This document shows, in pieces, positions 25,600 through 59,823 of a DNA stretch of 64,000 nt. The stretch is from an uncultured Alphaproteobacteria bacterium. Its GTDB lineage: Bacteria > Pseudomonadota > Alphaproteobacteria > Rhizobiales > Kaistiaceae. Positions within the stretch are counted from its first letter, which is position 1. The number at the start of each line of letters is the position of its first letter. The notes under the pieces were generated by a model that saw only the letters and a list, made by a program, of their open reading frames with translations, was not told the DNA's origin and did no database searches. Made by a program: the position numbers and the translations under genes. Where the stretch lies: contig CAVSRC010000006.1 of NCBI GenBank assembly GCA_963730325.1, forward strand, positions 2,693-66,692, written 5' to 3'.

Positions 25600-25676
25600 T
25601 GGCGCGCCCGAAGAGATTCGAACTCCTGACCCCCAGATTCGTAGTCTGGTGCTCTATCCAGCTGAGCTACGGGCGC
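25600..25676 (-). tRNA. tRNA-Arg (anticodon ACG), CCA encoded
   Basis: Minus strand reads GCGCCCGTAGCTCAGCTGGATAGAGCACCAGACTACGAATCTGGGGGTCAGGAGTTCGAATCTCTTCGGGCGCGCCA. It folds into a cloverleaf with anticodon loop CTACGAA and closely parallels E. coli tRNA-Arg(ACG). Confidence 0.95.
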
Positions 25677-32709: not shown

Positions 32710-32714
32710 GCGCG

Positions 32715-32847
32715 AGGTTCCCGCGCAGGCGGGAACCCAGTAGCCGCCGAAATCCGTTGTTTGAGCCGTGCGGCCGCCAACAGGACCGATGCTCCAAATC
32801 GCCAGTCCTTGCGATTACTGGGTCCCCGCCTGCGCGGGGACCTACAA
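32715..32847 (+). repeat. 133-nt MITE-like palindromic element, copy L
   Basis: 27-nt terminal inverted repeats (ggttcccgcgcaggcgggaacccagta vs the reverse complement of tactgggtccccgcctgcgcggggacc; 25/27 match). Each TIR is itself a 9-bp hairpin. Near-identical copy at 33179-33312. Confidence 0.8.
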
Positions 32848-32848
32848 G

Positions 32849-33148
32849 TCACCGCCACGCTGCAATCATTGGATACAGATCATCCCAGTTGGGATTCTTC
32901 TCTTCGATCAGGCGCACCTTCCAGGCGCGATTCCATTTCTTGATCTGCCGCTCGCGCAAGATCGCCTGCTCGAGATCGTCGTAAGGCTCGAAATAGACGA
33001 GTCGCGTTACGCCGTATTTCTTCGTGAAGCCCGGAGCGGCCTTTGCTCGGTGCTCGAACACGCGCCGGACGAGGTCGTTGGTCGAACCGACATAGAGTGT
33101 GCCGCCGATGCGGCTGGCGAGAATGTAGACGTAGCAATCTCCGGCCAT
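32849..33148 (-). CDS. GIY-YIG (URI domain) nuclease family protein
   Basis: GIY-YIG motif YVYILASRIGGTLYVGSTNDLVRRVFEH..G plus downstream LVYFE and E..IK.W elements. 99 aa. Confidence 0.88.
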   Translation of the reverse strand: MAGDCYVYILASRIGGTLYVGSTNDLVRRVFEHRAKAAPGFTKKYGVTRLVYFEPYDDLEQAILRERQIKKWNRAWKVRLIEEKNPNWDDLYPMIAAWR

Positions 33149-33178
33149 GACCGCAGTATAGTGTCATTCTCACAGCCC

Positions 33179-33312
33179 AGGTTCCCGCGCAGGCGGGAAC
33201 CCAGTAGCCACCGAAGGTCCGTTGTTTGAGCCGTGCGGCCGCCAACAGGACCGATGCTCCAAATCGCCAATCCTTGCGATTACTGGGTCCCCGCCTGCGC
33301 GGGGACCTACAA
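33179..33312 (+). repeat. 133-nt MITE-like palindromic element, copy R
   Basis: Direct repeat of 32715-32847 with 3 substitutions and a 1-nt indel. Same 27-nt TIR structure. Confidence 0.8.
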
Positions 33313-47194: not shown

Positions 47195-47518
47195 ATGGTC
47201 AGGATCAGCATCTTCTATCCGAACACGGCGAACGCCCGTTTCGACATGGACTACTACATCGAGACGCACATGCCGGCGTCGATCGAACGACTTTCCGCCG
47301 GCAAGGGCTTTCGGGGCGTTTCGGTCGATCGCGGCATCGGTGGCGGCGCGCCGGGTACACCGCCGGCCTATGTGGCGATGTGCCAATACCTGTTCGATAC
47401 GGCCGAGGACTTCATGTCCGCCTTTGGGCCGCACGCGGAGTTCCTGCAAGGCGACATTGCGAACTACACCGACATCGCGCCGGTGATCCAGATCAGCGAC
47501 GTGGCCATCGCCCGCTGA
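47195..47518 (+). CDS. EthD family reductase
   Basis: MVRISIFYPNTANARFDMDYYIETHMP... is typical of the EthD (TIGR02118-like) dimeric alpha/beta-barrel family. Confidence 0.85.
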   Translation: MVRISIFYPNTANARFDMDYYIETHMPASIERLSAGKGFRGVSVDRGIGGGAPGTPPAYVAMCQYLFDTAEDFMSAFGPHAEFLQGDIANYTDIAPVIQISDVAIAR

Positions 47519-47912
47519 AAATACTTATCCCCGCCCCCTGAACCGCCCCCATATTGGTTGGCATCCCCGCTCGAATGAGGGCGCCGTCCGGAGGCGTTCG
47601 TTCGGTGGAGCGGGGTGCGGCGCCCCCGCGCTTTCGGTTTCGCAGACCGGTGCCCGGGGCGTTCCCGGCGGGACCGTCGGCACTACGACCGGCCGCCCTC
47701 AGGGCTTGAACCCCGCGCCAATGCTGGGCGTAGCGCTCGCCGGGAGACGAAAGAAAATCGCCGCGGCGGGCGCTCGGGTCGAGTGCCCCCAATCTTCGCG
47801 GAGTAACCGCACGGCATTCGCCGGGCGCCCGCCACCCCCTCATGCCTCCGGGCAAGGGGAGCGGTCTTTGAAAGGTCAAAACCCGGTGCGAAACCGCGCG
47901 CGGGAACGAACC
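47515..47912 (+). repeat. Conserved intergenic element, copy A (candidate structured RNA)
   Basis: Blocks nearly identical to the reverse complement of 57439-57925 alternate with diverged blocks that preserve base pairing. No conserved ORF. Confidence 0.7.
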
Positions 47913-47919
47913 ATCTCGT

Positions 47920-47945
47920 GGTCCCCGCGAAGGCGGGGACCCAGT
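47920..47945. repeat. Solo hairpin related to the TIR of the 133-nt element
   Basis: ggtccccgcgaaggcggggacccagt differs from the 33.2-kb TIR only in the loop. Confidence 0.6.
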
Positions 47946-48041
47946 CGTCGCCAATGCTGGCGGCTCAATCCCGGGCGCCGGCGTTTACCGGGCGCCCGGC
48001 CGGCGCCGGGCACCCCAGGAGCCTGGCGCAACGTCGTGCCG

Positions 48042-48644
48042 TCAGAACCCCCTTCCGCCCTTCAGGAACTCCAGCTCCTCCTCCGTCGATTCGCGGCCGA
48101 GCGCCGCGTTGCGGTGGGGAAAGCGGGCGAACTTGCGGATGATGTCGCGGTGCTTGGTGGCGTAGTCGAGCTGCTCGCGGGCGCTGTCGAGACGGTCGAG
48201 GGGGACTTCCAGCGTGCGCTCGGCAAAGAGCGTCACCGACATGTCCTGATCGGCGACCGCCTCGCTGTGCTCGAAGGGGAGCATGACGAAGGTCTGCTCG
48301 ACCACGAAGAAGCGGCGCCAGCCGCCGGCCACCAGCTGACGGGCGAAGGACAGGGCAGCGGCATCGCAGGCGAAGGCCTCGCCGCTGTCGCGGTGGATCT
48401 GGCGCGGGAACTGGTCGAGCAAAACGATGAGGGCCACCTGCTGACGCCTCGTCAGCGATGCGAGATCCCAGACGGCGTCGCGCGCGGCGACGGTGTCCGC
48501 GCCCCAGGTGTCACGGATATGGGCGTCGATCTCCGGGGTCGGCCGGAACCAGGCCGTGCGCCGTTCCTCGTCCGGCTGGTCGTCCCACGCCTTGAGGTCG
48601 CCGAACCAGTAGAGATAGACCGCGTCCAGGATGGTCACGTCCAT
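48042..48644 (-). CDS. DUF924 family protein
   Basis: Helical protein of about 200 aa with W.G.L..WD and FPRNAALGR-like (FPHRNAALGRES) motifs characteristic of DUF924. Confidence 0.8.
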   Translation of the reverse strand: MDVTILDAVYLYWFGDLKAWDDQPDEERRTAWFRPTPEIDAHIRDTWGADTVAARDAVWDLASLTRRQQVALIVLLDQFPRQIHRDSGEAFACDAAALSFARQLVAGGWRRFFVVEQTFVMLPFEHSEAVADQDMSVTLFAERTLEVPLDRLDSAREQLDYATKHRDIIRKFARFPHRNAALGRESTEEELEFLKGGRGF

Positions 48645-53451: not shown

Positions 53452-53549
53452 GTGGGAGACCGGCAGGCGACCCGCGCCGAAACTCGTTAGGGCTGCTTCC
53501 TTCCGGACCTGACCCGGTTGGCGAGCGACACGTCCGCCGCCGGCCTCCC
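53452..53549 (-). ncRNA. ffs: Signal recognition particle RNA (small/4.5S type)
   Basis: The minus strand contains the invariant domain IV sequence GGUCAGGUCCGGAAGGAAGCAGCC. It is closed by a terminal helix GGGAGGCCGGCGG / CUGCCGGUCUCCC. Typical position upstream of dnaX. Confidence 0.9.
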
Positions 53550-55774: not shown

Positions 55775-56047
55775 ATGAAGCGGACGCTTGTTCTGGCACT
55801 ACTGCTGCTCGCCGGGTGTGACAAACCCGGCGAGTGGAGCGCGATCGTCTATCCAGACCGCACCGACCGCACCCATTTCGAGGTGACGCCGCGCTTCCAG
55901 ACGTTTTCCTACTGCCGCGACCAGGCCATCGAGCGGATGAAGGCGATCGAGGTCAGTGTCGGCGGGGGCGACTACGAATGCGGCCGCAACTGCCAGCTCG
56001 AGGGCGATCCACACAAGATGAACATCTGCGAGGAGAAACGGAAATAA
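55775..56047 (+). CDS. Small lipoprotein
   Basis: Lipobox LLLAG-C and a Cys-rich mature part. 90 aa. Confidence 0.7.
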   Translation: MKRTLVLALLLLAGCDKPGEWSAIVYPDRTDRTHFEVTPRFQTFSYCRDQAIERMKAIEVSVGGGDYECGRNCQLEGDPHKMNICEEKRK

Positions 56048-56217
56048 TTGCCGGCCGCCGGCGGCGTCCGGCGCTTGCATCGCCTCGGCCGCTCGGCCAA
56101 TCTTGCAGCATCCACACCCAAGGCGCCTGTCGATTCGCCCAAGTGCCGGGCCGGCCGCACGGCCGCCCGCCTTTCCCCTCGCGAAACCCGGGCCCTCACC
56201 CGCGAAGGCTGAATCCC

Positions 56218-57159
56218 ATGAAGACCTATACCGTTCCCCACACCGATTTCACGGTGCCCAGCGTCGTGCTCGGCCTGATGCGCATCGCCAAGATGAGCGA
56301 CGGCGACATCCAGAAGCTGGTCGGCACCGCCCTCGACAATGGCATCACCTTCTTCGACCACGCCGACGTCTATGGCGGCGCCGTGCATCGCTCGGAGGAG
56401 CGTTTCGCCGAGGCGATGAAGTTCTCGGCCGCCCAGCGCGAGGAGATCGTGCTGCAGAGCAAGGCCGGCATCAACATCACCAACGGCCCCGCCTATTTCG
56501 ACTTTTCCGCCGAGCACATCCTCGAGGCGGTCGACGGGTCGCTGAAGGCGCTGAAGACCGACTATCTCGACGTTCTGCTGCTGCATCGCCCCGACACGCT
56601 GTTGGAGCCGGAGGAGATCGCCGCCGCCTTCGACAAGCTGGAGGCGGCGGGCAAGGTGCGCCGTTTCGGCGTTTCCAACCAGACGCCCGGCCAGATCGAG
56701 CTGATCAAGACGGCGGTCAAGCAACCGCTGCTCTTCAACCAGGTGCAGCTCTCGATCACCCACGCCAACCTGTTCGCGCAAGGCATCGCCGTCAACATGA
56801 ACGGGCTCGGCCAATCGGTCGTGCGCGACAACGGCCTGCTCGACTATTCGCGGCTGAAGGGCATGATGCTGCAGGCCTGGTCGCCGTTCCAGAAGGGCTT
56901 CTTCGACGGCGTGTTCATCGACGACCGCGAAAACCACGCCGAACTCAACGACGTGCTCGACGAACTGGCCGCGAAATACGGCGTGACGCCGACCGGCATC
57001 GCGGTGGCGTGGATCGTGCGCCATCCGGCCAACATCCAGGTGGTGCTGGGCACCACCAATCCGGGGCGCGTGGCCGAATCCGCCGCCGGCTCGGACGTCA
57101 CCCTCAGCCGCGAGGAGTGGTACCGCCTGTTCCGCGCCGCCGGACACACGGTGCCGTAG
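56218..57159 (+). CDS. Aldo/keto reductase (YdhF-like)
   Basis: AKR motifs GITFFDHADVYG, LDVLLLHRPD, GVSNQTPGQIE. ATG at 56218. Confidence 0.9.
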   Translation: MKTYTVPHTDFTVPSVVLGLMRIAKMSDGDIQKLVGTALDNGITFFDHADVYGGAVHRSEERFAEAMKFSAAQREEIVLQSKAGINITNGPAYFDFSAEHILEAVDGSLKALKTDYLDVLLLHRPDTLLEPEEIAAAFDKLEAAGKVRRFGVSNQTPGQIELIKTAVKQPLLFNQVQLSITHANLFAQGIAVNMNGLGQSVVRDNGLLDYSRLKGMMLQAWSPFQKGFFDGVFIDDRENHAELNDVLDELAAKYGVTPTGIAVAWIVRHPANIQVVLGTTNPGRVAESAAGSDVTLSREEWYRLFRAAGHTVP

Positions 57160-57250
57160 GGGGGCGGCTTCGGCGTTCCACGAAACACCCTGGGGTGCTC
57201 GGCCTCGACCGGGCACCCGGCAAGCGCAGGCCACGGTCTCTTGCCAATAC

Positions 57251-57322
57251 CCCCCTCCCTTCGCGCCTAACTCGCTTCGCTCCCAAGGCGCGAAGCCCTC
57301 CCCCGCAAGGGTGGAGGGGGAG
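57251..57322 (+). repeat. Double-hairpin R element, copy R1
   Basis: cccctccct + hairpin 1 (cttcgcgcc/ggcgcgaag) + ccctccccc-gcaa-gggtggaggggg. Confidence 0.7.
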
Positions 57323-57438
57323 CAAGCCGAAAGGCTCGCGCTTTGATGGCACTGCCGTCGTGTTGGGGTCCTCTCCCCCCTTGCGGGGGAGAGATAGAGA
57401 GGGGGGTACGGGCACGCACCTATCGCCACCAAGACACA

Positions 57439-57925
57439 GCTTCCCGTTCCCGCGCGCCGGAAGCACCGGGGTTTGACCTTTCAAAGAGCATCCTCATGGC
57501 CTGGACCATGAGGGGATGGCGGGCGCTCGATGAGCACCAGTCTGTAACTTTGTGGGGCGCTCAGCCGAGCGCCCGCCGCGGTGGTTTTTGCTCCGGTCCC
57601 GCCTGGGCCAGACGAAGGCAAGGCGGCTCCATCCGGACGACCGACCTTTGGACCACCACGGCGCCGATGCCGGTTTCCCGTATCGCACTGGCCGTGGCTG
57701 ACCCTCGCCTGCCTTTAGCGCTGCCCTTTCGGGGCAATGGCGCGCGGCGGAGGACAAGCCTCCGCTGGCGGGCTTCCGAGCCCACGCCGCTCCGCTTGCG
57801 AGGCGGAAACGGCGGACACCGCACCCCGCTCCCATCTCAAGACGCCTCCGGAGACGCCCCTCATTCGAGCGAGGATGCCAACCAATATGGGGGCGGGTGA
57901 GCGAGCGGGGATAGATTTCTTTTCA
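57439..57925 (-). repeat. Conserved intergenic element, copy B (candidate structured RNA), inverted relative to copy A
   Basis: The reverse complement aligns with 47515-47912 from tgaaaa...tatccccgc to ...ctttgaaaggtcaaa..cgcgcgggaacg. The central part is longer. Confidence 0.7.
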
Positions 57926-58022
57926 TGGGCGCTCGCAGAAGACGTGGATGGCCGGGACGAGCCCGGCCATGACGAGAGACTGTGAACGCGGGCGGAGGAG
58001 AGCCGCACCATCACCACAGCCT

Positions 58023-58093
58023 GAGCCCCTCACCCTGTTCCTCCAGGCTCTCTCCGTTCGCCAAGAGGAACAGCCCTCTCCCTGTGGGAGAGG
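58023..58093 (+). repeat. Double-hairpin R element, copy R2
   Basis: gagcccctcaccct + hairpin 1 (ctgttcctc/gaggaacag) + ccctctccc-tgtg-ggagagg. Confidence 0.7.
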
Positions 58094-58169
58094 AAACCCA
58101 CCAGCCGACGCCACAAGCTGCCTCTCCCGACGGGAGAGGAAATTCCGCCACAGCGCCTGCTGCGATTTG

Positions 58170-58236
58170 CCTCTCCCAAAGGGAGAGGGCTTTCGTGCCT
58201 TATGAGCGGAGCGAATTAGGCACAAAGGGTGAGGGG
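58170..58236 (-). repeat. Double-hairpin R element, copy R5 (inverted), abutting the DUF559 start codon
   Basis: The minus strand reads cccctcaccct + hairpin 1 (tttgtgcc/ggcacgaaa) + gccctctccc-tttg-ggagagg. Confidence 0.7.
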
Positions 58237-58587
58237 ATGAAGCCTGTCGGGATTGCCCGCCGTCTGCGCCGCGAGGCGACCGACGCGGAGCGGCGCCTAT
58301 GGTCACGACTGCGCAACCGGCAGGTGGGCGATGTCAAATTTCGCAGGCAGGTGCCCATCGGTCCCTTCATTGCAGATTTTGCCTCCGTCGAGGCGAAGCT
58401 GGTCATCGAAGTCGACGGCAGCCAACATGCCGAAGAAATCGAGGCGGATCGGCTGCGGTCCGATGCGCTCGGCGAGGCGGGTTACCTCGTGCTTCGCTTC
58501 TGGAACAACGACGTGCTCGACAATATCGATGGTGTCGTGAAGGAGATCGAGAGGACACTGGCCGCTCGGCCGGTGGACAATCGCTAA
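58237..58587 (+). CDS. DUF559 (Vsr-like endonuclease fold) protein
   Basis: ARRLRREATDAERRLWSRLRNRQ..KFRRQ..IG.FIADF......LVIEVDG.QH...........D..L...G..VLRFWNNDV is the DUF559 signature. ATG at 58237; the upstream part of the track ORF is translated repeat sequence. Confidence 0.88.
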   Translation: MKPVGIARRLRREATDAERRLWSRLRNRQVGDVKFRRQVPIGPFIADFASVEAKLVIEVDGSQHAEEIEADRLRSDALGEAGYLVLRFWNNDVLDNIDGVVKEIERTLAARPVDNR

Positions 58588-58592
58588 GGTCT

Positions 58593-58663
58593 CAGCCCCT
58601 CACCCTGTTCCTCTAGGCTCGCTTCGTTCGCCAAGAGGAACAGCCCTCTCCCGGCGGGAGAGG
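58593..58663 (+). repeat. Double-hairpin R element, copy R3
   Basis: cagcccctcaccct + hairpin 1 (ctgttcctct/agaggaacag) + ccctctccc-ggcg-ggagagg. Starts 6 nt after the DUF559 stop. Confidence 0.7.
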
Positions 58664-58687
58664 AAACACGTCGAGAGGCGCCGCCCC

Positions 58688-58753
58688 CTAAACCAGCCCC
58701 TCCGGGTAGACGCCGAGGATGCGCACGCGGGTGGAGAAGAACTCCAGCTCCTC
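58688..58753 (-). pseudogene. Duplicated 3' fragment of pheA
   Basis: Encodes EELEFFSTRVRILGVYPEGLV*. It is identical in nucleotide sequence to the real pheA end (58874-58954) apart from one substitution and a 15-nt in-frame gap (ASSFR). Confidence 0.75.
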
Positions 58754-58782
58754 TGGCCGCTCGGCCGGTGGACAATCGCTAA
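58754..58782 (+). pseudogene. Duplicated last 29 nt of the DUF559 gene
   Basis: tggccgctcggccggtggacaatcgctaa is identical to 58559-58587. Confidence 0.75.
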
Positions 58783-58787
58783 GGTCT

Positions 58788-58856
58788 GAGCCCCTCACCC
58801 TTCGCCTCTAGTTCGCTGCGCTCACAAGAGGCGAAGCCCTCTCCCTGTGGGAGAGG
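58788..58856 (+). repeat. Double-hairpin R element, copy R4
   Basis: gagcccctcaccct + hairpin 1 (cttcgcctct/agaggcgaag) + ccctctccc-tgtg-ggagagg. Confidence 0.7.
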
Positions 58857-58873
58857 AGACCCGTCGCCGCCCC

Positions 58874-59722
58874 CTACACCAGCCCCTCGCGGAACGAGCT
58901 TGCCGGGTAGACGCCGAGGATGCGCACGCGGGTGGAGAAGAACTCCAGCTCCTCCAGCGCCAGCGCCAGCGGGCGGTCGTCCGGGTGGCCTTCGACATCG
59001 GCAAAGAACTGGGTGGCGAAGAACTGGCCGTCGAGCTGGTAGCTCTCCAGCTTGGTCATGTTGACGCCGTTGGTGGCGAAGCCGCCCATCGCCTTGTAGA
59101 GCGCGGCCGGCACGTTGCGCACGCGGAAGACGAAGGTGGTGATGACCATGCCCTTGCCGCGGCGGGCGCGCACCTCGTCCTTCGACAGGATGACGAAGCG
59201 CGTGGTGTTGTGGGCGGCATCCTCGACGTCCTCCTTGAGGATATCGAGGCCGTGGACTTCCGCCGCGATGGCCGGGGCCAGCGCCGCCTGCGTGATATCG
59301 CCGGCCTCGGCGACCTCGCGCGCGGCACCGGCGGTATCGCCGGAGACGACGGTCTTCCAGCCGTGCCGGCGGATGATGTTGCGGCACTGGCCTAGCGCAT
59401 GGATGTGGCTGTGGACGGTCTTGATCGTCTTCAGCGTGGTGCCCCTCGGCGCCATCAGCTGGAAGCGGATGGGGAGAAAATGCTCGCCGATGATGTGCAG
59501 CCGGGAGCTCGGCAGCAGGTGGTGGATATCGGCGACGCGGCCGGCGAGCGAATTCTCGATCGGGATCATGGCGAGGTCGGCGGTGCCCTTGTCGACCGCG
59601 GCGAAGCAATCCTCGAAGGTCGGACAGGGAATTGCCTTGGCCTTCGGGTAGACCTCGTGGCAGGCGACCTCGGAATTGGCGCCGGGCTCGCCCTGGAAAA
59701 CGATCGTCTTTGGTTTCGGCAT
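58874..59722 (-). CDS. pheA: Prephenate dehydratase
   Basis: PDT domain (IVFQGEPGANSE..., TRF motif HNTTRFVIL) followed by an ACT domain. ATG at 59722. Confidence 0.93.
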   Translation of the reverse strand: MPKPKTIVFQGEPGANSEVACHEVYPKAKAIPCPTFEDCFAAVDKGTADLAMIPIENSLAGRVADIHHLLPSSRLHIIGEHFLPIRFQLMAPRGTTLKTIKTVHSHIHALGQCRNIIRRHGWKTVVSGDTAGAAREVAEAGDITQAALAPAIAAEVHGLDILKEDVEDAAHNTTRFVILSKDEVRARRGKGMVITTFVFRVRNVPAALYKAMGGFATNGVNMTKLESYQLDGQFFATQFFADVEGHPDDRPLALALEELEFFSTRVRILGVYPASSFREGLV

Positions 59723-59823
59723 GACACGCACCCCTTTTCGCGCCGTGGCTTAGCGCAGCAGGCGAGAAACGGGAAGCTTTGTCTGCCGTGTCCCGCTGGC
59801 GCTCGACGTGGCCCGTGGAACGG

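What the first reader, a model, noticed from the sequence alone, without database searches (positions are those of the whole stretch)
47515..47912. Unassigned ~400-nt conserved non-coding element (copy A) with structure-preserving substitutions; second, inverted copy 10 kb away
A non-coding stretch begins at the stop codon of the EthD-like gene (tgaaaa...tatccccgc) and recurs in inverted orientation at 57439-57925. Near-identical blocks alternate with diverged blocks. Examples of the conserved blocks are ccgcccccatattggttggcatcc, cgctcgaatgaggg, ggagcggggtgcgg, ccgcggcgggcgctcgg and ctttgaaaggtcaaa. The diverged positions keep base pairing in three places. (i) The 13-bp long-range stem ggcgggcgctcgg (47765-47777) / ccgggcgcccgcc (47821-47833) has a T-G pair in A where copy B has T-A, and B has a terminal G-T pair. 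(ii) The imperfect hairpin at 47835-47861 is replaced in B by a different, perfect hairpin cctcatgg/ccatgagg (57492-57513) at the same relative position. (iii) The stem ccccgctc/gagcgggg (47565-47572 / 47608-47615) reads cctcgctc/gagcgggg in B. Every non-Watson-Crick pair is a G-U only when read on the A(+)/B(-) strand; on the other strand they would be A-C mismatches. That points to a transcribed RNA or a single-stranded intermediate rather than a duplex protein-binding site. Indels break all reading frames between the copies. From memory it does not match RNase P RNA, tmRNA, 6S, SRP RNA or common riboswitch cores.
Basis: seen in the sequence. Interest (0 to 1): 0.8.

Follow-up and report, generated by a model that had tools for sequence, protein, structure and literature searches.

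The report
New large structured RNA gene family
The two inverted 400-485-base non-coding stretches are real copies of an undescribed, highly folded RNA gene found so far only in a few uncultured soil alphaproteobacteria, where it comes and goes between genomes and loci; its function is unknown.

Summary
Copy A (47517-47912, +) and copy B (57441-57924, -) share conserved blocks separated by diverged blocks that keep base pairing.

Five more full copies and one fragment came from related uncultured Hyphomicrobiales-like assemblies. Across the seven copies, 51-84% identical, the helices stay about 96% paired, against 35-55% in slid controls. The 3' domain has 8 pairs changed on both sides. The long variable domain has 15 among only three sequences. 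G-U cells outnumber A-C cells 36 to 4, which fixes the functional strand as A(+)/B(-). GNRA-type loops cap several hairpins, and indels break every reading frame.

No Rfam family, tRNA/tmRNA, plasmid, phage or viral match exists.

The element is accessory and mobile. Copy B sits at a conserved locus (aldo-keto reductase to pheA) where two relatives lack it or keep only a stub. Copy A is a 527-bp insertion where relatives' EthD and DUF924 genes overlap at CTAG, with no terminal inverted repeats and no target duplication. A third locus exists in another assembly.

Best reading: a new lineage-restricted large structured ncRNA that probably acts in trans. A non-autonomous mobile RNA or ssDNA element is the main rival. 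Function is not established.

The parts
47517..47912 (+). Copy A, core of the structured element (short, 'A-type' variable domain)
   Evidence: Aligns with B, L009, L029, L031, L032 and L033. Covariance models R1 and R2 score 115 and 133 bits.
47517..47622 (+). Copy A, 5' domain: AU-rich leader GAAAATACTTATCCCC, conserved unpaired block CCGCCCCCATATTGGTTGG, helix P2 (47561-47572 / 47608-47618) enclosing hairpin P3 (47582-47596), and internal loop GAATGAGGG
   Evidence: RNAalifold and pair counts: 96% of cells paired against 38-55% in slid controls. P2 has a T-A to C-G double change in L029. The P3 loop is CCGG, or CATG in L029.
47617..47764 (+). Long-range helix P4 (GCGGCG 47617-47622 with CGCCGC 47759-47764) closing the variable domain (47623-47756). 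Its first two bases compete with the GCA/TGC extension of P2.
   Evidence: C-G in A, U-A in B and L031, U-G in L009, L029 and L033. The A-type variable domain folds into 41 conserved pairs, 3 of them compensatory, with GAAA and GCAA loops in L009 and L029.
47765..47833 (+). Helix P6, a long hairpin (GGCGGGCGCTCGG / CCGGGCGCCCGCC plus an inner extension)
   Evidence: 20 pairs, 97% paired, 4 with changes on both sides, for example TCTGG/CCAGA in L032.
47835..47861 (+). Hairpin P7. Its sequence is free but it is always a hairpin. Its 5' strand CCCCUC is also complementary to the GAGGGG of the 5'-domain internal loop.
   Evidence: A different self-complementary sequence occupies this place in each of the 7 copies. 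The alternative pairing was found as inverted repeat I5.
47864..47875 (+). Conserved unpaired block GTCTTTGAAAGG, 3-5 nt after P7; boxA-like
   Evidence: Present in 6 of 7 copies. It matches the gamma-proteobacterial boxA consensus GYTCTTTAANA at 10 of 11 positions (PMC5725501). A functional link is inference.
47886..47908 (+). Hairpin P8 (GTGCG/CGCGC, 47886-47899) and the invariant 3' block GCGGGAACG (47900-47908)
   Evidence: 9 pairs, 97% paired, 3 with changes on both sides (helix 3).
47913..48041 (+). 3' appendage of copy A: a REP-like double-hairpin module plus the tail ...CCTGGCGCAACGTCGTGCCG. It is part of the inserted DNA.
   Evidence: Homologous to the L009 appendage; 80% identity over about 530 bp for core plus appendage. 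The first hairpin recurs at window 32713-33307 and the second at 57189-57231. Relatives have no DNA at all at this site.
57441..57924 (-). Copy B, core of the structured element (long, 'B-type' variable domain, 57586-57816)
   Evidence: R1 scores 110 bits and R2 139 bits. The B-type variable domain has 82 conserved pairs, 15 with compensatory changes, among B, L031 and L032.
57411..57440 (-). Tail of copy B (..GGTGGCGATAGGTGCGTGCC), the same motif that ends the appendage of A and L009 and follows L031 and L033
   Evidence: Read directly from the sequences.
47195..47518 (+). EthD-like gene. Its stop codon TGA is made of a host T plus the first two bases of the insertion.
   Evidence: Pfam EthD. 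In relatives it ends ...CGCTAG, overlapping the DUF924 stop.
48042..48644 (-). DUF924 gene, convergent with EthD. Its stop is TCA on the + strand, at the right junction of the insertion.
   Evidence: Pfam DUF924. Relatives.
56230..57159 (+). Aldo-keto reductase gene, convergent with copy B. It marks the conserved locus.
   Evidence: Pfam. Orthologues at 85-91% identity have the element downstream in L029, L031, L032 and L033.

Best explanation
The two stretches are genes of a previously undescribed family of large (about 400-485 nt), multi-domain structured non-coding RNAs, transcribed from the A(+)/B(-) strand.

A conserved 5' domain (P2/P3) and a conserved 3' domain (P6, P7, P8) form the core. 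A long-range helix (P4) holds out a peripheral domain that comes in a short form, a long form and an intermediate form. A few strictly conserved unpaired blocks (CCCCCAUAUUGGUUGG, GAAUGAGGGG, GUUCUUUGAAAGGU, GCGGGAACG) are the likely contact or active surfaces.

I infer that the RNA acts in trans as a stand-alone folded RNA, probably protein-bound, and not as a cis-regulator, because no neighbouring gene is conserved. It is dispensable and lineage-restricted. It lives in a recombination hot spot and has been copied to new loci as DNA.

Shown: the fold, the strand, the lack of coding capacity, the lack of any known relative, presence/absence at one locus, and the insertion that made copy A.

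Inferred: that it is transcribed, that it acts in trans, and that the boxA-like block recruits Nus factors.
For: - Two copies in the window, with chance expectation about 0.
- Seven full copies in five assemblies, 51-84% identical in the conserved domains.
- 3' domain: 96.4% of cells paired against 35-44% when slid; 8 pairs changed on both sides; 0 of 500 shuffles reach the observed values for paired cells, cells changed on both sides, further pair types and covariation score, and 1 of 500 for the count of pairs changed on both sides.
- 5' domain: 96% paired against 38-55% when slid.
- B-type peripheral domain: 82 pairs, 15 compensatory, among three sequences. A-type: 41 pairs, with hairpins capped by GAAA and GCAA loops in L009 and L029.
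- 36 G-U cells against 4 A-C cells.
- Indels of 1-2 nt inside the conserved blocks exclude a shared reading frame.
- No Rfam family matches at any threshold, and no tRNA or tmRNA is found there.
- No conserved neighbouring gene. The downstream partner is convergent DUF924 for A; convergent AKR for B, L029 and L032; a GGDEF gene with its own AT-rich upstream region for L031 and L033; and an ABC ATPase for L009.
- A precedent exists for lineage-restricted large RNAs of unknown function: the smtA 'Soda Lake' motif, over 350 nt and found only in Thioalkalivibrio (PMC11109978).
Against: - There is no expression evidence. No sigma-70-like promoter or canonical terminator was found at either copy, and the 5' and 3' ends of the transcript are undefined.
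- The helix that would join the two ends (UCCCCGC with GCGCGGGA) is not kept in four of the seven copies.
- Covariation in the 5' domain is weak.
- Only seven sequences from close relatives are available, so phylogenetic non-independence inflates the shuffle statistics.
- One copy (L029) lacks both the CCCCCAUAUUGG block and the boxA-like block, so these 'functional' motifs are not universal.
- Minimum free energy alone does not pick the strand: z = -2.5 for + and -3.3 for -.
- Mobility without an adjacent enzyme gene fits a parasitic element as well as it fits a cellular RNA gene.
Confidence: 0.5

Rival explanations
1. It is a non-autonomous mobile element. Its folded RNA or single-stranded DNA serves as the substrate or guide of an enzyme encoded elsewhere in the genome, in the manner of orphan IS200/IS605-type elements with omega-RNA, IS110 bridge-RNA ends, or ORF-less retroelements. 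The structure serves the element's own propagation.
For: - Copy A is a clean 527-bp insertion in the middle of CTAG, where the EthD and DUF924 stop codons overlap in three relatives. It has no terminal inverted repeats and no target duplication.
- The same unit (core + REP-like module + tail) lies at a third, unrelated locus in L009.
- Short and long forms do not follow the locus: L029 has the short form at the AKR locus, and the window has the long form there.
- At the AKR locus the element is absent from L035 and truncated in L030.
- The 5' flanks differ in every genome.
- The 5' flanks of A and L009 (GTGGCCATCGCCCG and GTGGCGATGCCCG) resemble the element's own 3' tail (GTGGCGATAGGTGCGTGCCCG). 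This is what site-specific insertion would leave. It was read and not tested statistically.
Against: - Copy number is low. Only 7 copies and 1 fragment turn up in 235 kb around them, and one exact-motif hit among 185,579 species genomes.
- None of the sampled copies lies next to a TnpB, IscB, IS110 recombinase, reverse transcriptase or integrase gene. The only transposase is an unrelated ISAs1-type DDE gene in L029.
- HEARO, IS605-orfB and group II intron models in Rfam do not match.
- The distance between the flank motif and the element start is not fixed (0-3 nt).
- Only one insertion event has a matching empty site.
Confidence: 0.25
2. It is a cis-acting part of a transcript. One version is a 3'-UTR or transcript-end structure. 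Another is a leader with an antitermination signal (variable hairpin plus boxA) or a terminator/antiterminator switch (P7 against the long-range GAGGGG/CCCCUC pairing) that controls read-through into what lies downstream.
For: - Copy A starts at the stop codon of EthD.
- P7 followed by UCUUU was flagged as terminator-like in B.
- The 5'-domain loop GAGGGG is complementary to the 5' strand of P7 in all copies, giving two exclusive folds (I5).
- The block after P7 matches boxA at 10 of 11 positions.
- In L031, L033 and L009 a gene follows on the same strand.
Against: - Four of seven copies face a convergent gene, so nothing lies downstream to regulate.
- No upstream gene is shared. B has about 950 bp of repeats upstream.
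- The U-tract is 3-5 nt away from the hairpin and is missing in L029.
- A size of 400-485 nt with a covarying peripheral domain is far more than a terminator or nut site needs.
- The GGDEF gene of L031 and L033 has its own AT-rich upstream region about 300 bp away.
Confidence: 0.12
3. It is a DNA-level feature: a mosaic of intergenic repeats (REP/BIME/RIME-like), a recombination (att) site, or a decaying remnant with no present function.
For: Every copy is embedded in REP-like repeats, and a REP module sits between core and tail in A, L009, L029 and L032. It lies in a region that gains and loses genes such as MazEF, a Shedu-like SduA gene, DUF559 and an IS. L030 keeps only a 3' stub.
Against: - REP-type repeats are short and multi-copy. 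This is a 400-485-nt unit with one or two copies per sampled region.
- Compensatory changes in at least five helices and the 36:4 G-U to A-C asymmetry show selection on one folded strand, not on duplex DNA.
- Sequence blocks stay identical between copies that are only about 55-70% identical elsewhere.
Confidence: 0.08

Closest known systems
Orphan large structured bacterial ncRNAs (OLE, GOLLD, ROOL, raiA motif, smtA 'Soda Lake' RNA)
   Same: It is several hundred nucleotides long and has many covarying helices with strictly conserved junction nucleotides. It has no coding capacity and no obligatory neighbouring gene. Its distribution is patchy or lineage-restricted, and it is often linked to mobile or variable DNA (PMC11109978, PMC12286853).
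   Different: It shows no sequence or structure similarity to any of them (Rfam scans). It occurs in high-GC uncultured alphaproteobacteria. It has interchangeable short and long peripheral domains. One documented insertion sits exactly between two overlapping convergent genes.
Guide or scaffold RNAs of IS200/IS605 and IS110 elements (HEARO/IscB omega-RNA, TnpB omega-RNA, bridge RNA), including orphan copies
   Same: It is a structured RNA carried by DNA that inserts without terminal inverted repeats or target duplication. There is a possible short sequence resemblance between the left flank and the element's right end.
   Different: None of the 7 copies lies near a nuclease or recombinase gene. 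Rfam HEARO and IS605-orfB models give nothing. Copy number is low, and the RNA is larger than bridge RNAs or TnpB omega-RNAs.
rrn-type nut site (boxB hairpin, then boxA) bound by NusB/NusE
   Same: A hairpin of free sequence is followed within a few nucleotides by G(Y)UCUUUGAAA, which matches GYTCTTTAANA at 10 of 11 positions (PMC5725501).
   Different: It lies near the 3' end of the conserved unit, not at the start of a long transcript. No rRNA or other long untranslated cargo follows. It is absent from L029. Binding was not tested.
REP/BIME and Rhizobium RIME intergenic repeats
   Same: It is intergenic, lies between convergent genes, and is GC-rich and hairpin-forming. True REP-like modules are attached to it.
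   Different: The core is 4-10 times longer and low-copy. It has a multi-domain fold with covariation and a strand bias.

Membership tests
Any Rfam 15 family (4227 models, including RNase P, tmRNA, 6S, SRP, riboswitches, HEARO, IS605-orfB, group II intron domains, OLE/GOLLD/ROOL/raiA) | A covariance-model score at or above the family's gathering threshold | tested here: not met
   At gathering thresholds the whole window gives only tRNA-Arg and SRP RNA, both elsewhere. Permissive scans of A, B, L032 and L029 give only sub-threshold, mutually inconsistent hairpin hits.
tRNA / tmRNA | Cloverleaf or tRNA-like domain with a tag reading frame | tested here: not met
   ARAGORN finds only tRNA-Arg at 25600-25676.
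MITE / classical insertion sequence | Terminal inverted repeats and a target-site duplication | tested here: not met
   No inverted repeat joins the two ends of the 527-bp insertion. The junctions read cgcT|GAAAA...GTGCCGTC|Agaac against the empty site cgcTAGaat, with no duplication.
MITE / REP-type repeat | Many copies per genome | tested here: not met
   Models R1 and R2 find 7 copies and 1 fragment in 235 kb. The exact-motif scan of 185,579 species genomes gave one true hit, and the JGI metagenome scan gave none.
Composite transposon bounded by the two inverted copies | The segment between the copies moves as a unit and is absent or relocated in relatives | tested here: not met
   The 10 kb between the copies (recR, ybaB, dnaX, SRP RNA, HIT, NUDIX, OmpA-like, AKR) keeps the same order in relatives that lack copy A.
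IS200/IS605-type element or orphan omega-RNA | Association with TnpA, TnpB or IscB genes in at least some copies | tested here: not met
   No such Pfam family appears among the called genes within +/-10 kb of any copy.
IS200/IS605-type element or orphan omega-RNA | Insertion immediately 3' of a fixed 4-5-nt target, without duplication | tested here: inconclusive
   There is no duplication. The left flanks share GCCC 0-3 nt from the element start, but the spacing varies, and only one empty site is available.
Riboswitch / cis-regulatory leader | A conserved downstream gene or gene class on the same strand | tested here: not met
   The downstream gene is convergent in A, B, L029 and L032. It is a GGDEF gene in L031 and L033 and an ABC ATPase in L009.
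boxA / nut-like antitermination site | Match to the boxA consensus, next to a hairpin | tested here: inconclusive
   6 of 7 copies match GYTCTTTAANA at 10 of 11 positions, 3-5 nt after the P7 hairpin. L029 lacks the match. The organism's own rrn boxA is not in the data.
boxA / nut-like antitermination site | NusB/NusE binding and resistance to Rho | not testable with these tools
   This needs biochemistry or genetics.
Structured non-coding RNA (generic) | Helices kept by compensatory substitutions on one strand | tested here: met
   for covariation; 36 G-U against 4 A-C cells.
Structured non-coding RNA (generic) | A transcript of defined ends | not testable with these tools
   No expression data are available, and consensus promoter and terminator scans are empty.

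The most novel reading that the evidence does not exclude
The element is a self-contained mobile RNA gene of a new kind. Its ornate fold would be a ribozyme or guide that, alone or with a host or trans-encoded enzyme, directs its own site-specific insertion at gene termini. Copy A sits exactly inside the overlapping stop codons CTAG, with no terminal inverted repeats or duplication, and the left flank resembles the element's own tail. The short and long peripheral domains would be exchangeable modules.
Probability: 0.15. Interest if true: 0.85.

Novelty: new member of a known kind. Interest (0 to 1): 0.6.

Why it matters
Large bacterial RNAs with intricate, covariation-supported folds are rare. 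Historically they have turned out to be ribozymes, ribonucleoprotein scaffolds or guide RNAs.

This one has no relative in Rfam. It has a modular peripheral domain and a boxA-like block. It also shows direct evidence of gain, loss and relocation among close relatives, next to toxin-antitoxin and Shedu-like defence genes.

If it is expressed, it adds a new class to the short list of orphan large ncRNAs. It also offers a tractable comparison within one lineage: genomes with it, without it, and with two copies. If instead it is a protein-less mobile element, it would point to an unknown mobilisation mechanism. Its very narrow known distribution limits its general importance for now.

Tried and rejected
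1. Known RNA families: Rfam at gathering and permissive thresholds on four copies, plus ARAGORN. Nothing found.
2. Plasmid and phage collections with both copies in distant mode. No match.
3. Exact-motif scans. Genomes gave 1 true hit among 11. JGI metagenomes gave 0 of 6. Viral contigs gave 0 of 9. The 5' block varies by 1-3 bases even in true relatives (L031, L032, L033) and is replaced in L029, so exact patterns under-sample the family.
4. A six-frame translation of both copies used as a protein query, to catch spurious ORF calls over other copies. Nothing found, probably because the candidate list saturated.
5. Exact-protein look-ups of the window's EthD, RecR and DUF924. Not on record.
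6. Coding hypothesis. Rejected because of the indels.
7. Composite transposon and MITE. Rejected (see the membership tests).
8. Sigma-70, sigma-54 and EcfG-type promoter readings of the conserved AT-rich blocks, checked by eye. Spacing or conservation fails. The automatic scan found none.
9. A terminal helix joining the 5' UCCCCGC to the 3' GCGCGGGA, as RNAalifold first proposed. It is not kept in L009, L031, L032 and L033.
10. A pseudoknot between the 5' block and the boxA-like block. Duplex folding gave no consistent pairing.
11. Similarity of the GGTTGGCATCC block to a tRNA T-arm, and of the element to a two-piece tmRNA or RNase P, checked from memory. The key positions are not met and there is no model hit.
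12. Organism name from cluster members. None is recorded.
Full report
**The observation.** Window 47515-47912 (+) and 57439-57925 (-) are two copies of one element. The 21-mer CCCCCATATTGGTTGGCATCC and the block CTCTTTGAAAGGTCAAA each occur only in these two places in the 64 kb, with about 0 expected by chance. Identical blocks alternate with diverged blocks, and B carries about 90 extra bases in its interior.

GC3-based gene calling and Pfam give the context.
- A lies between the convergent EthD-like gene (47195-47518, +) and the DUF924 gene (48042-48644, -).
- B lies between an aldo-keto reductase gene (AKR, ends at 57159, +) and pheA (58874-59731, -).
- About 950 bp of REP-like repeats lie on B's 5' side.
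- The ORF that would end at B's first base (57923-58306) is not a gene.

**Known families.** Rfam at gathering thresholds finds only tRNA-Arg and SRP RNA elsewhere in the window. Permissive scans of four copies give only inconsistent sub-threshold hairpin hits. ARAGORN finds no tRNA or tmRNA here. Neither copy matches any plasmid or phage record.

**Relatives.** An exact-motif scan of one genome per species returned a single true hit, L009. It is an uncultured alphaproteobacterial MAG with an A-like copy about 540 bp from a contig end. Metagenome and viral scans returned only chance matches.

Homologues of the flanking DUF924 and AKR proteins led to contigs of related uncultured bacteria. Their DUF924 is 84-87% identical and their AKR 85-91%; the nearest named AKRs are from Devosia, at about 77%. 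Four of these contigs carry a full copy downstream of AKR, in the orientation of B:
- L029:11181-11600
- L031:12660-13141
- L032:11097-11572
- L033:12728-13174

L030 keeps only the last 50 nt or so, L035 has none, and L034 is not syntenic.

Covariance models of the 5' and 3' domains find nothing more in 235 kb of window and loci. The element is therefore low-copy.

**Structure.** The seven copies are 61-84% identical in the 5' domain and 51-83% in the 3' domain.

| Region | Pairs | Cells paired | Slid controls | Pairs changed on both sides |
|---|---|---|---|---|
| 3' domain (P6, P8) | 32 | 96.4% | 35-44% | 8 |
| 5' domain (P2, P3) | 18 | 96% | 38-55% | 2 |
| Long (B-type) interior, 3 sequences | 82 | not counted | not run | 15 |
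| Short (A-type) interior, 3 sequences | 41 | not counted | not run | 3 |

- In the 3' domain, none of 500 shuffles reaches the observed paired fraction, cells changed on both sides, further pair types or covariation score. One of 500 reaches the count of pairs changed on both sides.
- In the 5' domain, P2 changes from CCCCGCTC/GAGCGGGG to CCCCGCCC/GGGCGGGG in L029.
- A long-range helix P4 (GCGGYG/CRCCGC) closes the interior. It is C-G in A, U-A in B and L031, and U-G in others.
- Hairpins in the interiors are capped by GNRA-type loops such as GAAA and GCAA.
- Hairpin P7 has a different sequence in every copy but is always a hairpin.
- Across P2, P3, P6 and P8 there are 36 G-U cells and 4 A-C cells. 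The folded strand is therefore A(+)/B(-).
- Minimum free energy alone does not separate the strands.
- Indels of 1-2 nt inside the conserved blocks rule out a shared reading frame.

**Unpaired conserved blocks.** CCGCCCCCAUAUUGGUUGG precedes P2. GAAUGAGGGG sits in the P2 internal loop. G(Y)UCUUUGAAAGGU follows P7 by 3-5 nt. GCGGGAACG ends the core.

The third block matches the gamma-proteobacterial boxA consensus GYTCTTTAANA at 10 of 11 positions (PMC5725501). From memory, Gram-positive rrn boxA sequences carry G at the discordant position. Together with the free-sequence hairpin before it, this resembles an rrn-type boxB-boxA pair. That is a lead, not a finding.

The loop GAGGGG is complementary to the 5' strand of P7 (CCCCUC) in all copies (I5). 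Two exclusive folds are therefore possible. No double substitution tests this pairing.

L029 has replaced both the first block, with a self-contained hairpin TGACG...CGTCA, and the boxA-like block. It still keeps all helices.

**Gain, loss and movement.** In L012, L029 (same contig as L013) and L033 the EthD and DUF924 genes overlap, and the junction sequences read for L012 and L013 show the overlap as ...CGCTAGAAT.... In the window the same site reads ...CGCT|GAAAATAC...GTGCCGTC|AGAAC....

This is a 527-bp insertion in the middle of CTAG. The insertion supplies the last two bases of EthD's new stop codon and the first two of DUF924's. It has no terminal inverted repeat and no duplication.

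The inserted unit is the core, a REP-like double hairpin and a short tail. The same unit, 80% identical over about 530 bp, lies in L009 upstream of an ABC ATPase gene, which is a third locus.

A is of the short type, like L029 at the AKR locus. B is of the long type. A is therefore not a recent duplicate of B.

At the AKR locus the DNA on the element's 5' side differs in every genome:
- repeats in the window
- an ISAs1-type transposase, MazEF and DUF559 in L029
- MazEF, a Shedu-like SduA_C gene and DUF559 in L032
- unknown ORFs in L031
- a truncated DUF559 in L033

The 10 kb between A and B (recR, ybaB, dnaX, SRP RNA and others) is conserved housekeeping synteny in relatives without A. The inverted pair is therefore not a transposon.

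**Interpretation.** The evidence establishes a single-strand fold under selection, with no coding capacity and no known relative. The most economical reading is a gene for a large structured ncRNA that acts on its own, because no neighbouring gene is conserved. Like other orphan large RNAs, it is lineage-restricted and tied to variable DNA (PMC11109978; PMC12286853).

I give this 0.5. No transcript, promoter or terminator is shown. The documented insertion fits equally well a non-autonomous mobile element whose fold serves a trans-encoded enzyme (0.25). The left flanks of A and L009 resemble the element's own tail, which hints at site-specific insertion. I could not test that with one empty site.

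A cis role, as a terminator/antiterminator or nut-like signal, is weakened by the convergent neighbours and by the size of the fold (0.12). A purely DNA-level repeat or remnant is contradicted by the covariation and the G-U bias (0.08).

**Novelty and score.** This is a new RNA family of the known general kind 'orphan large structured bacterial ncRNA', with unusual evidence of relocation. It is real, clean and untouched by current databases. It is known so far from only a handful of uncultured genomes, and no function is in hand. Interest: 0.6.

Noticed in passing
window 53454-53546 (-) and 25600-25676 (-): Bacterial small SRP RNA (60.6 bits) just upstream of dnaX, and tRNA-Arg(ACG). Both are ordinary housekeeping RNA genes.
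   Followed up: yes
window 47920-47962, 32713-32748, 32800-32842, 33180-33205, 33276-33307; also 47977-48019 and 57189-57231: Two families of REP-like GC-rich hairpin repeats, for example GTCCCCGCGAAGGCGGGGACCCAG, are dispersed in the window and attached to copy A. Similar modules follow the core in L009, L029 and L032.
   Followed up: partly
window 57925-58874 and 57160-57410: The DNA on both sides of copy B is filled with other repeat types (CTCTCCCACAGGGAGAG, TCATGGCCGGGCTCGTCCCGGCCATCCACG, CTCTCCCCCGCAAGGGGGGAGAG). The 127-codon ORF 57923-58306 across them has no Pfam hit and low GC3, and is probably spurious.
   Followed up: partly
L029:11655-15961, L032:11835-14779, L035:11286-12104, L030:7271-7621, L031:13618-14753: The AKR-pheA interval is a gene-exchange hot spot in relatives. 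It holds an ISAs1-type DDE transposase, MazE/PemK toxin-antitoxin pairs, a Shedu-like SduA_C protein, DUF559/MTES_1575 endonuclease genes and unannotated ORFs. The window has none of these.
   Followed up: partly
L012:10597-10600, L013:10597-10600, L029:651-654: In relatives the convergent EthD and DUF924 genes overlap by the palindrome CTAG, which serves as the stop codon on both strands. Copy A was inserted exactly in its middle and rebuilt both stops.
   Followed up: yes
L032:11560-11590 (-), L033:13160-13190 (-): In these two copies the 5' leader forms a perfect 9-bp hairpin (GGGGACAAC-GAATAA-GTTGTCCCC). Its left arm is missing in the other five copies, so the true 5' end may differ between copies.
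   Followed up: no
L033:13169-13306: A DUF559 gene is cut to 45 codons right at the 5' boundary of the element. This suggests an insertion or deletion event with an endpoint at the element's start.
   Followed up: no
window 47566-47581 with 47837-47852; equivalent positions in all copies: The internal-loop block (A)UGAGGGG is complementary to the 5' strand of hairpin P7, CCCCUCAU, over 5-8 bp in every copy. It competes with P7 itself, as a possible pseudoknot or switch.
   Followed up: partly
window 55834-57159: The longest ORF for the aldo-keto reductase is 441 codons, but homologues are 309-313 aa. The real start is probably near 56230.
   Followed up: partly
L030 (ERZ25039500 contig_23186), L035: Several housekeeping genes (ybaB, dnaX, pheA, NUDIX) are split into fragments in these contigs. 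The assemblies probably carry frameshift errors, so absence or truncation of the element there should be read with some caution.
   Followed up: no
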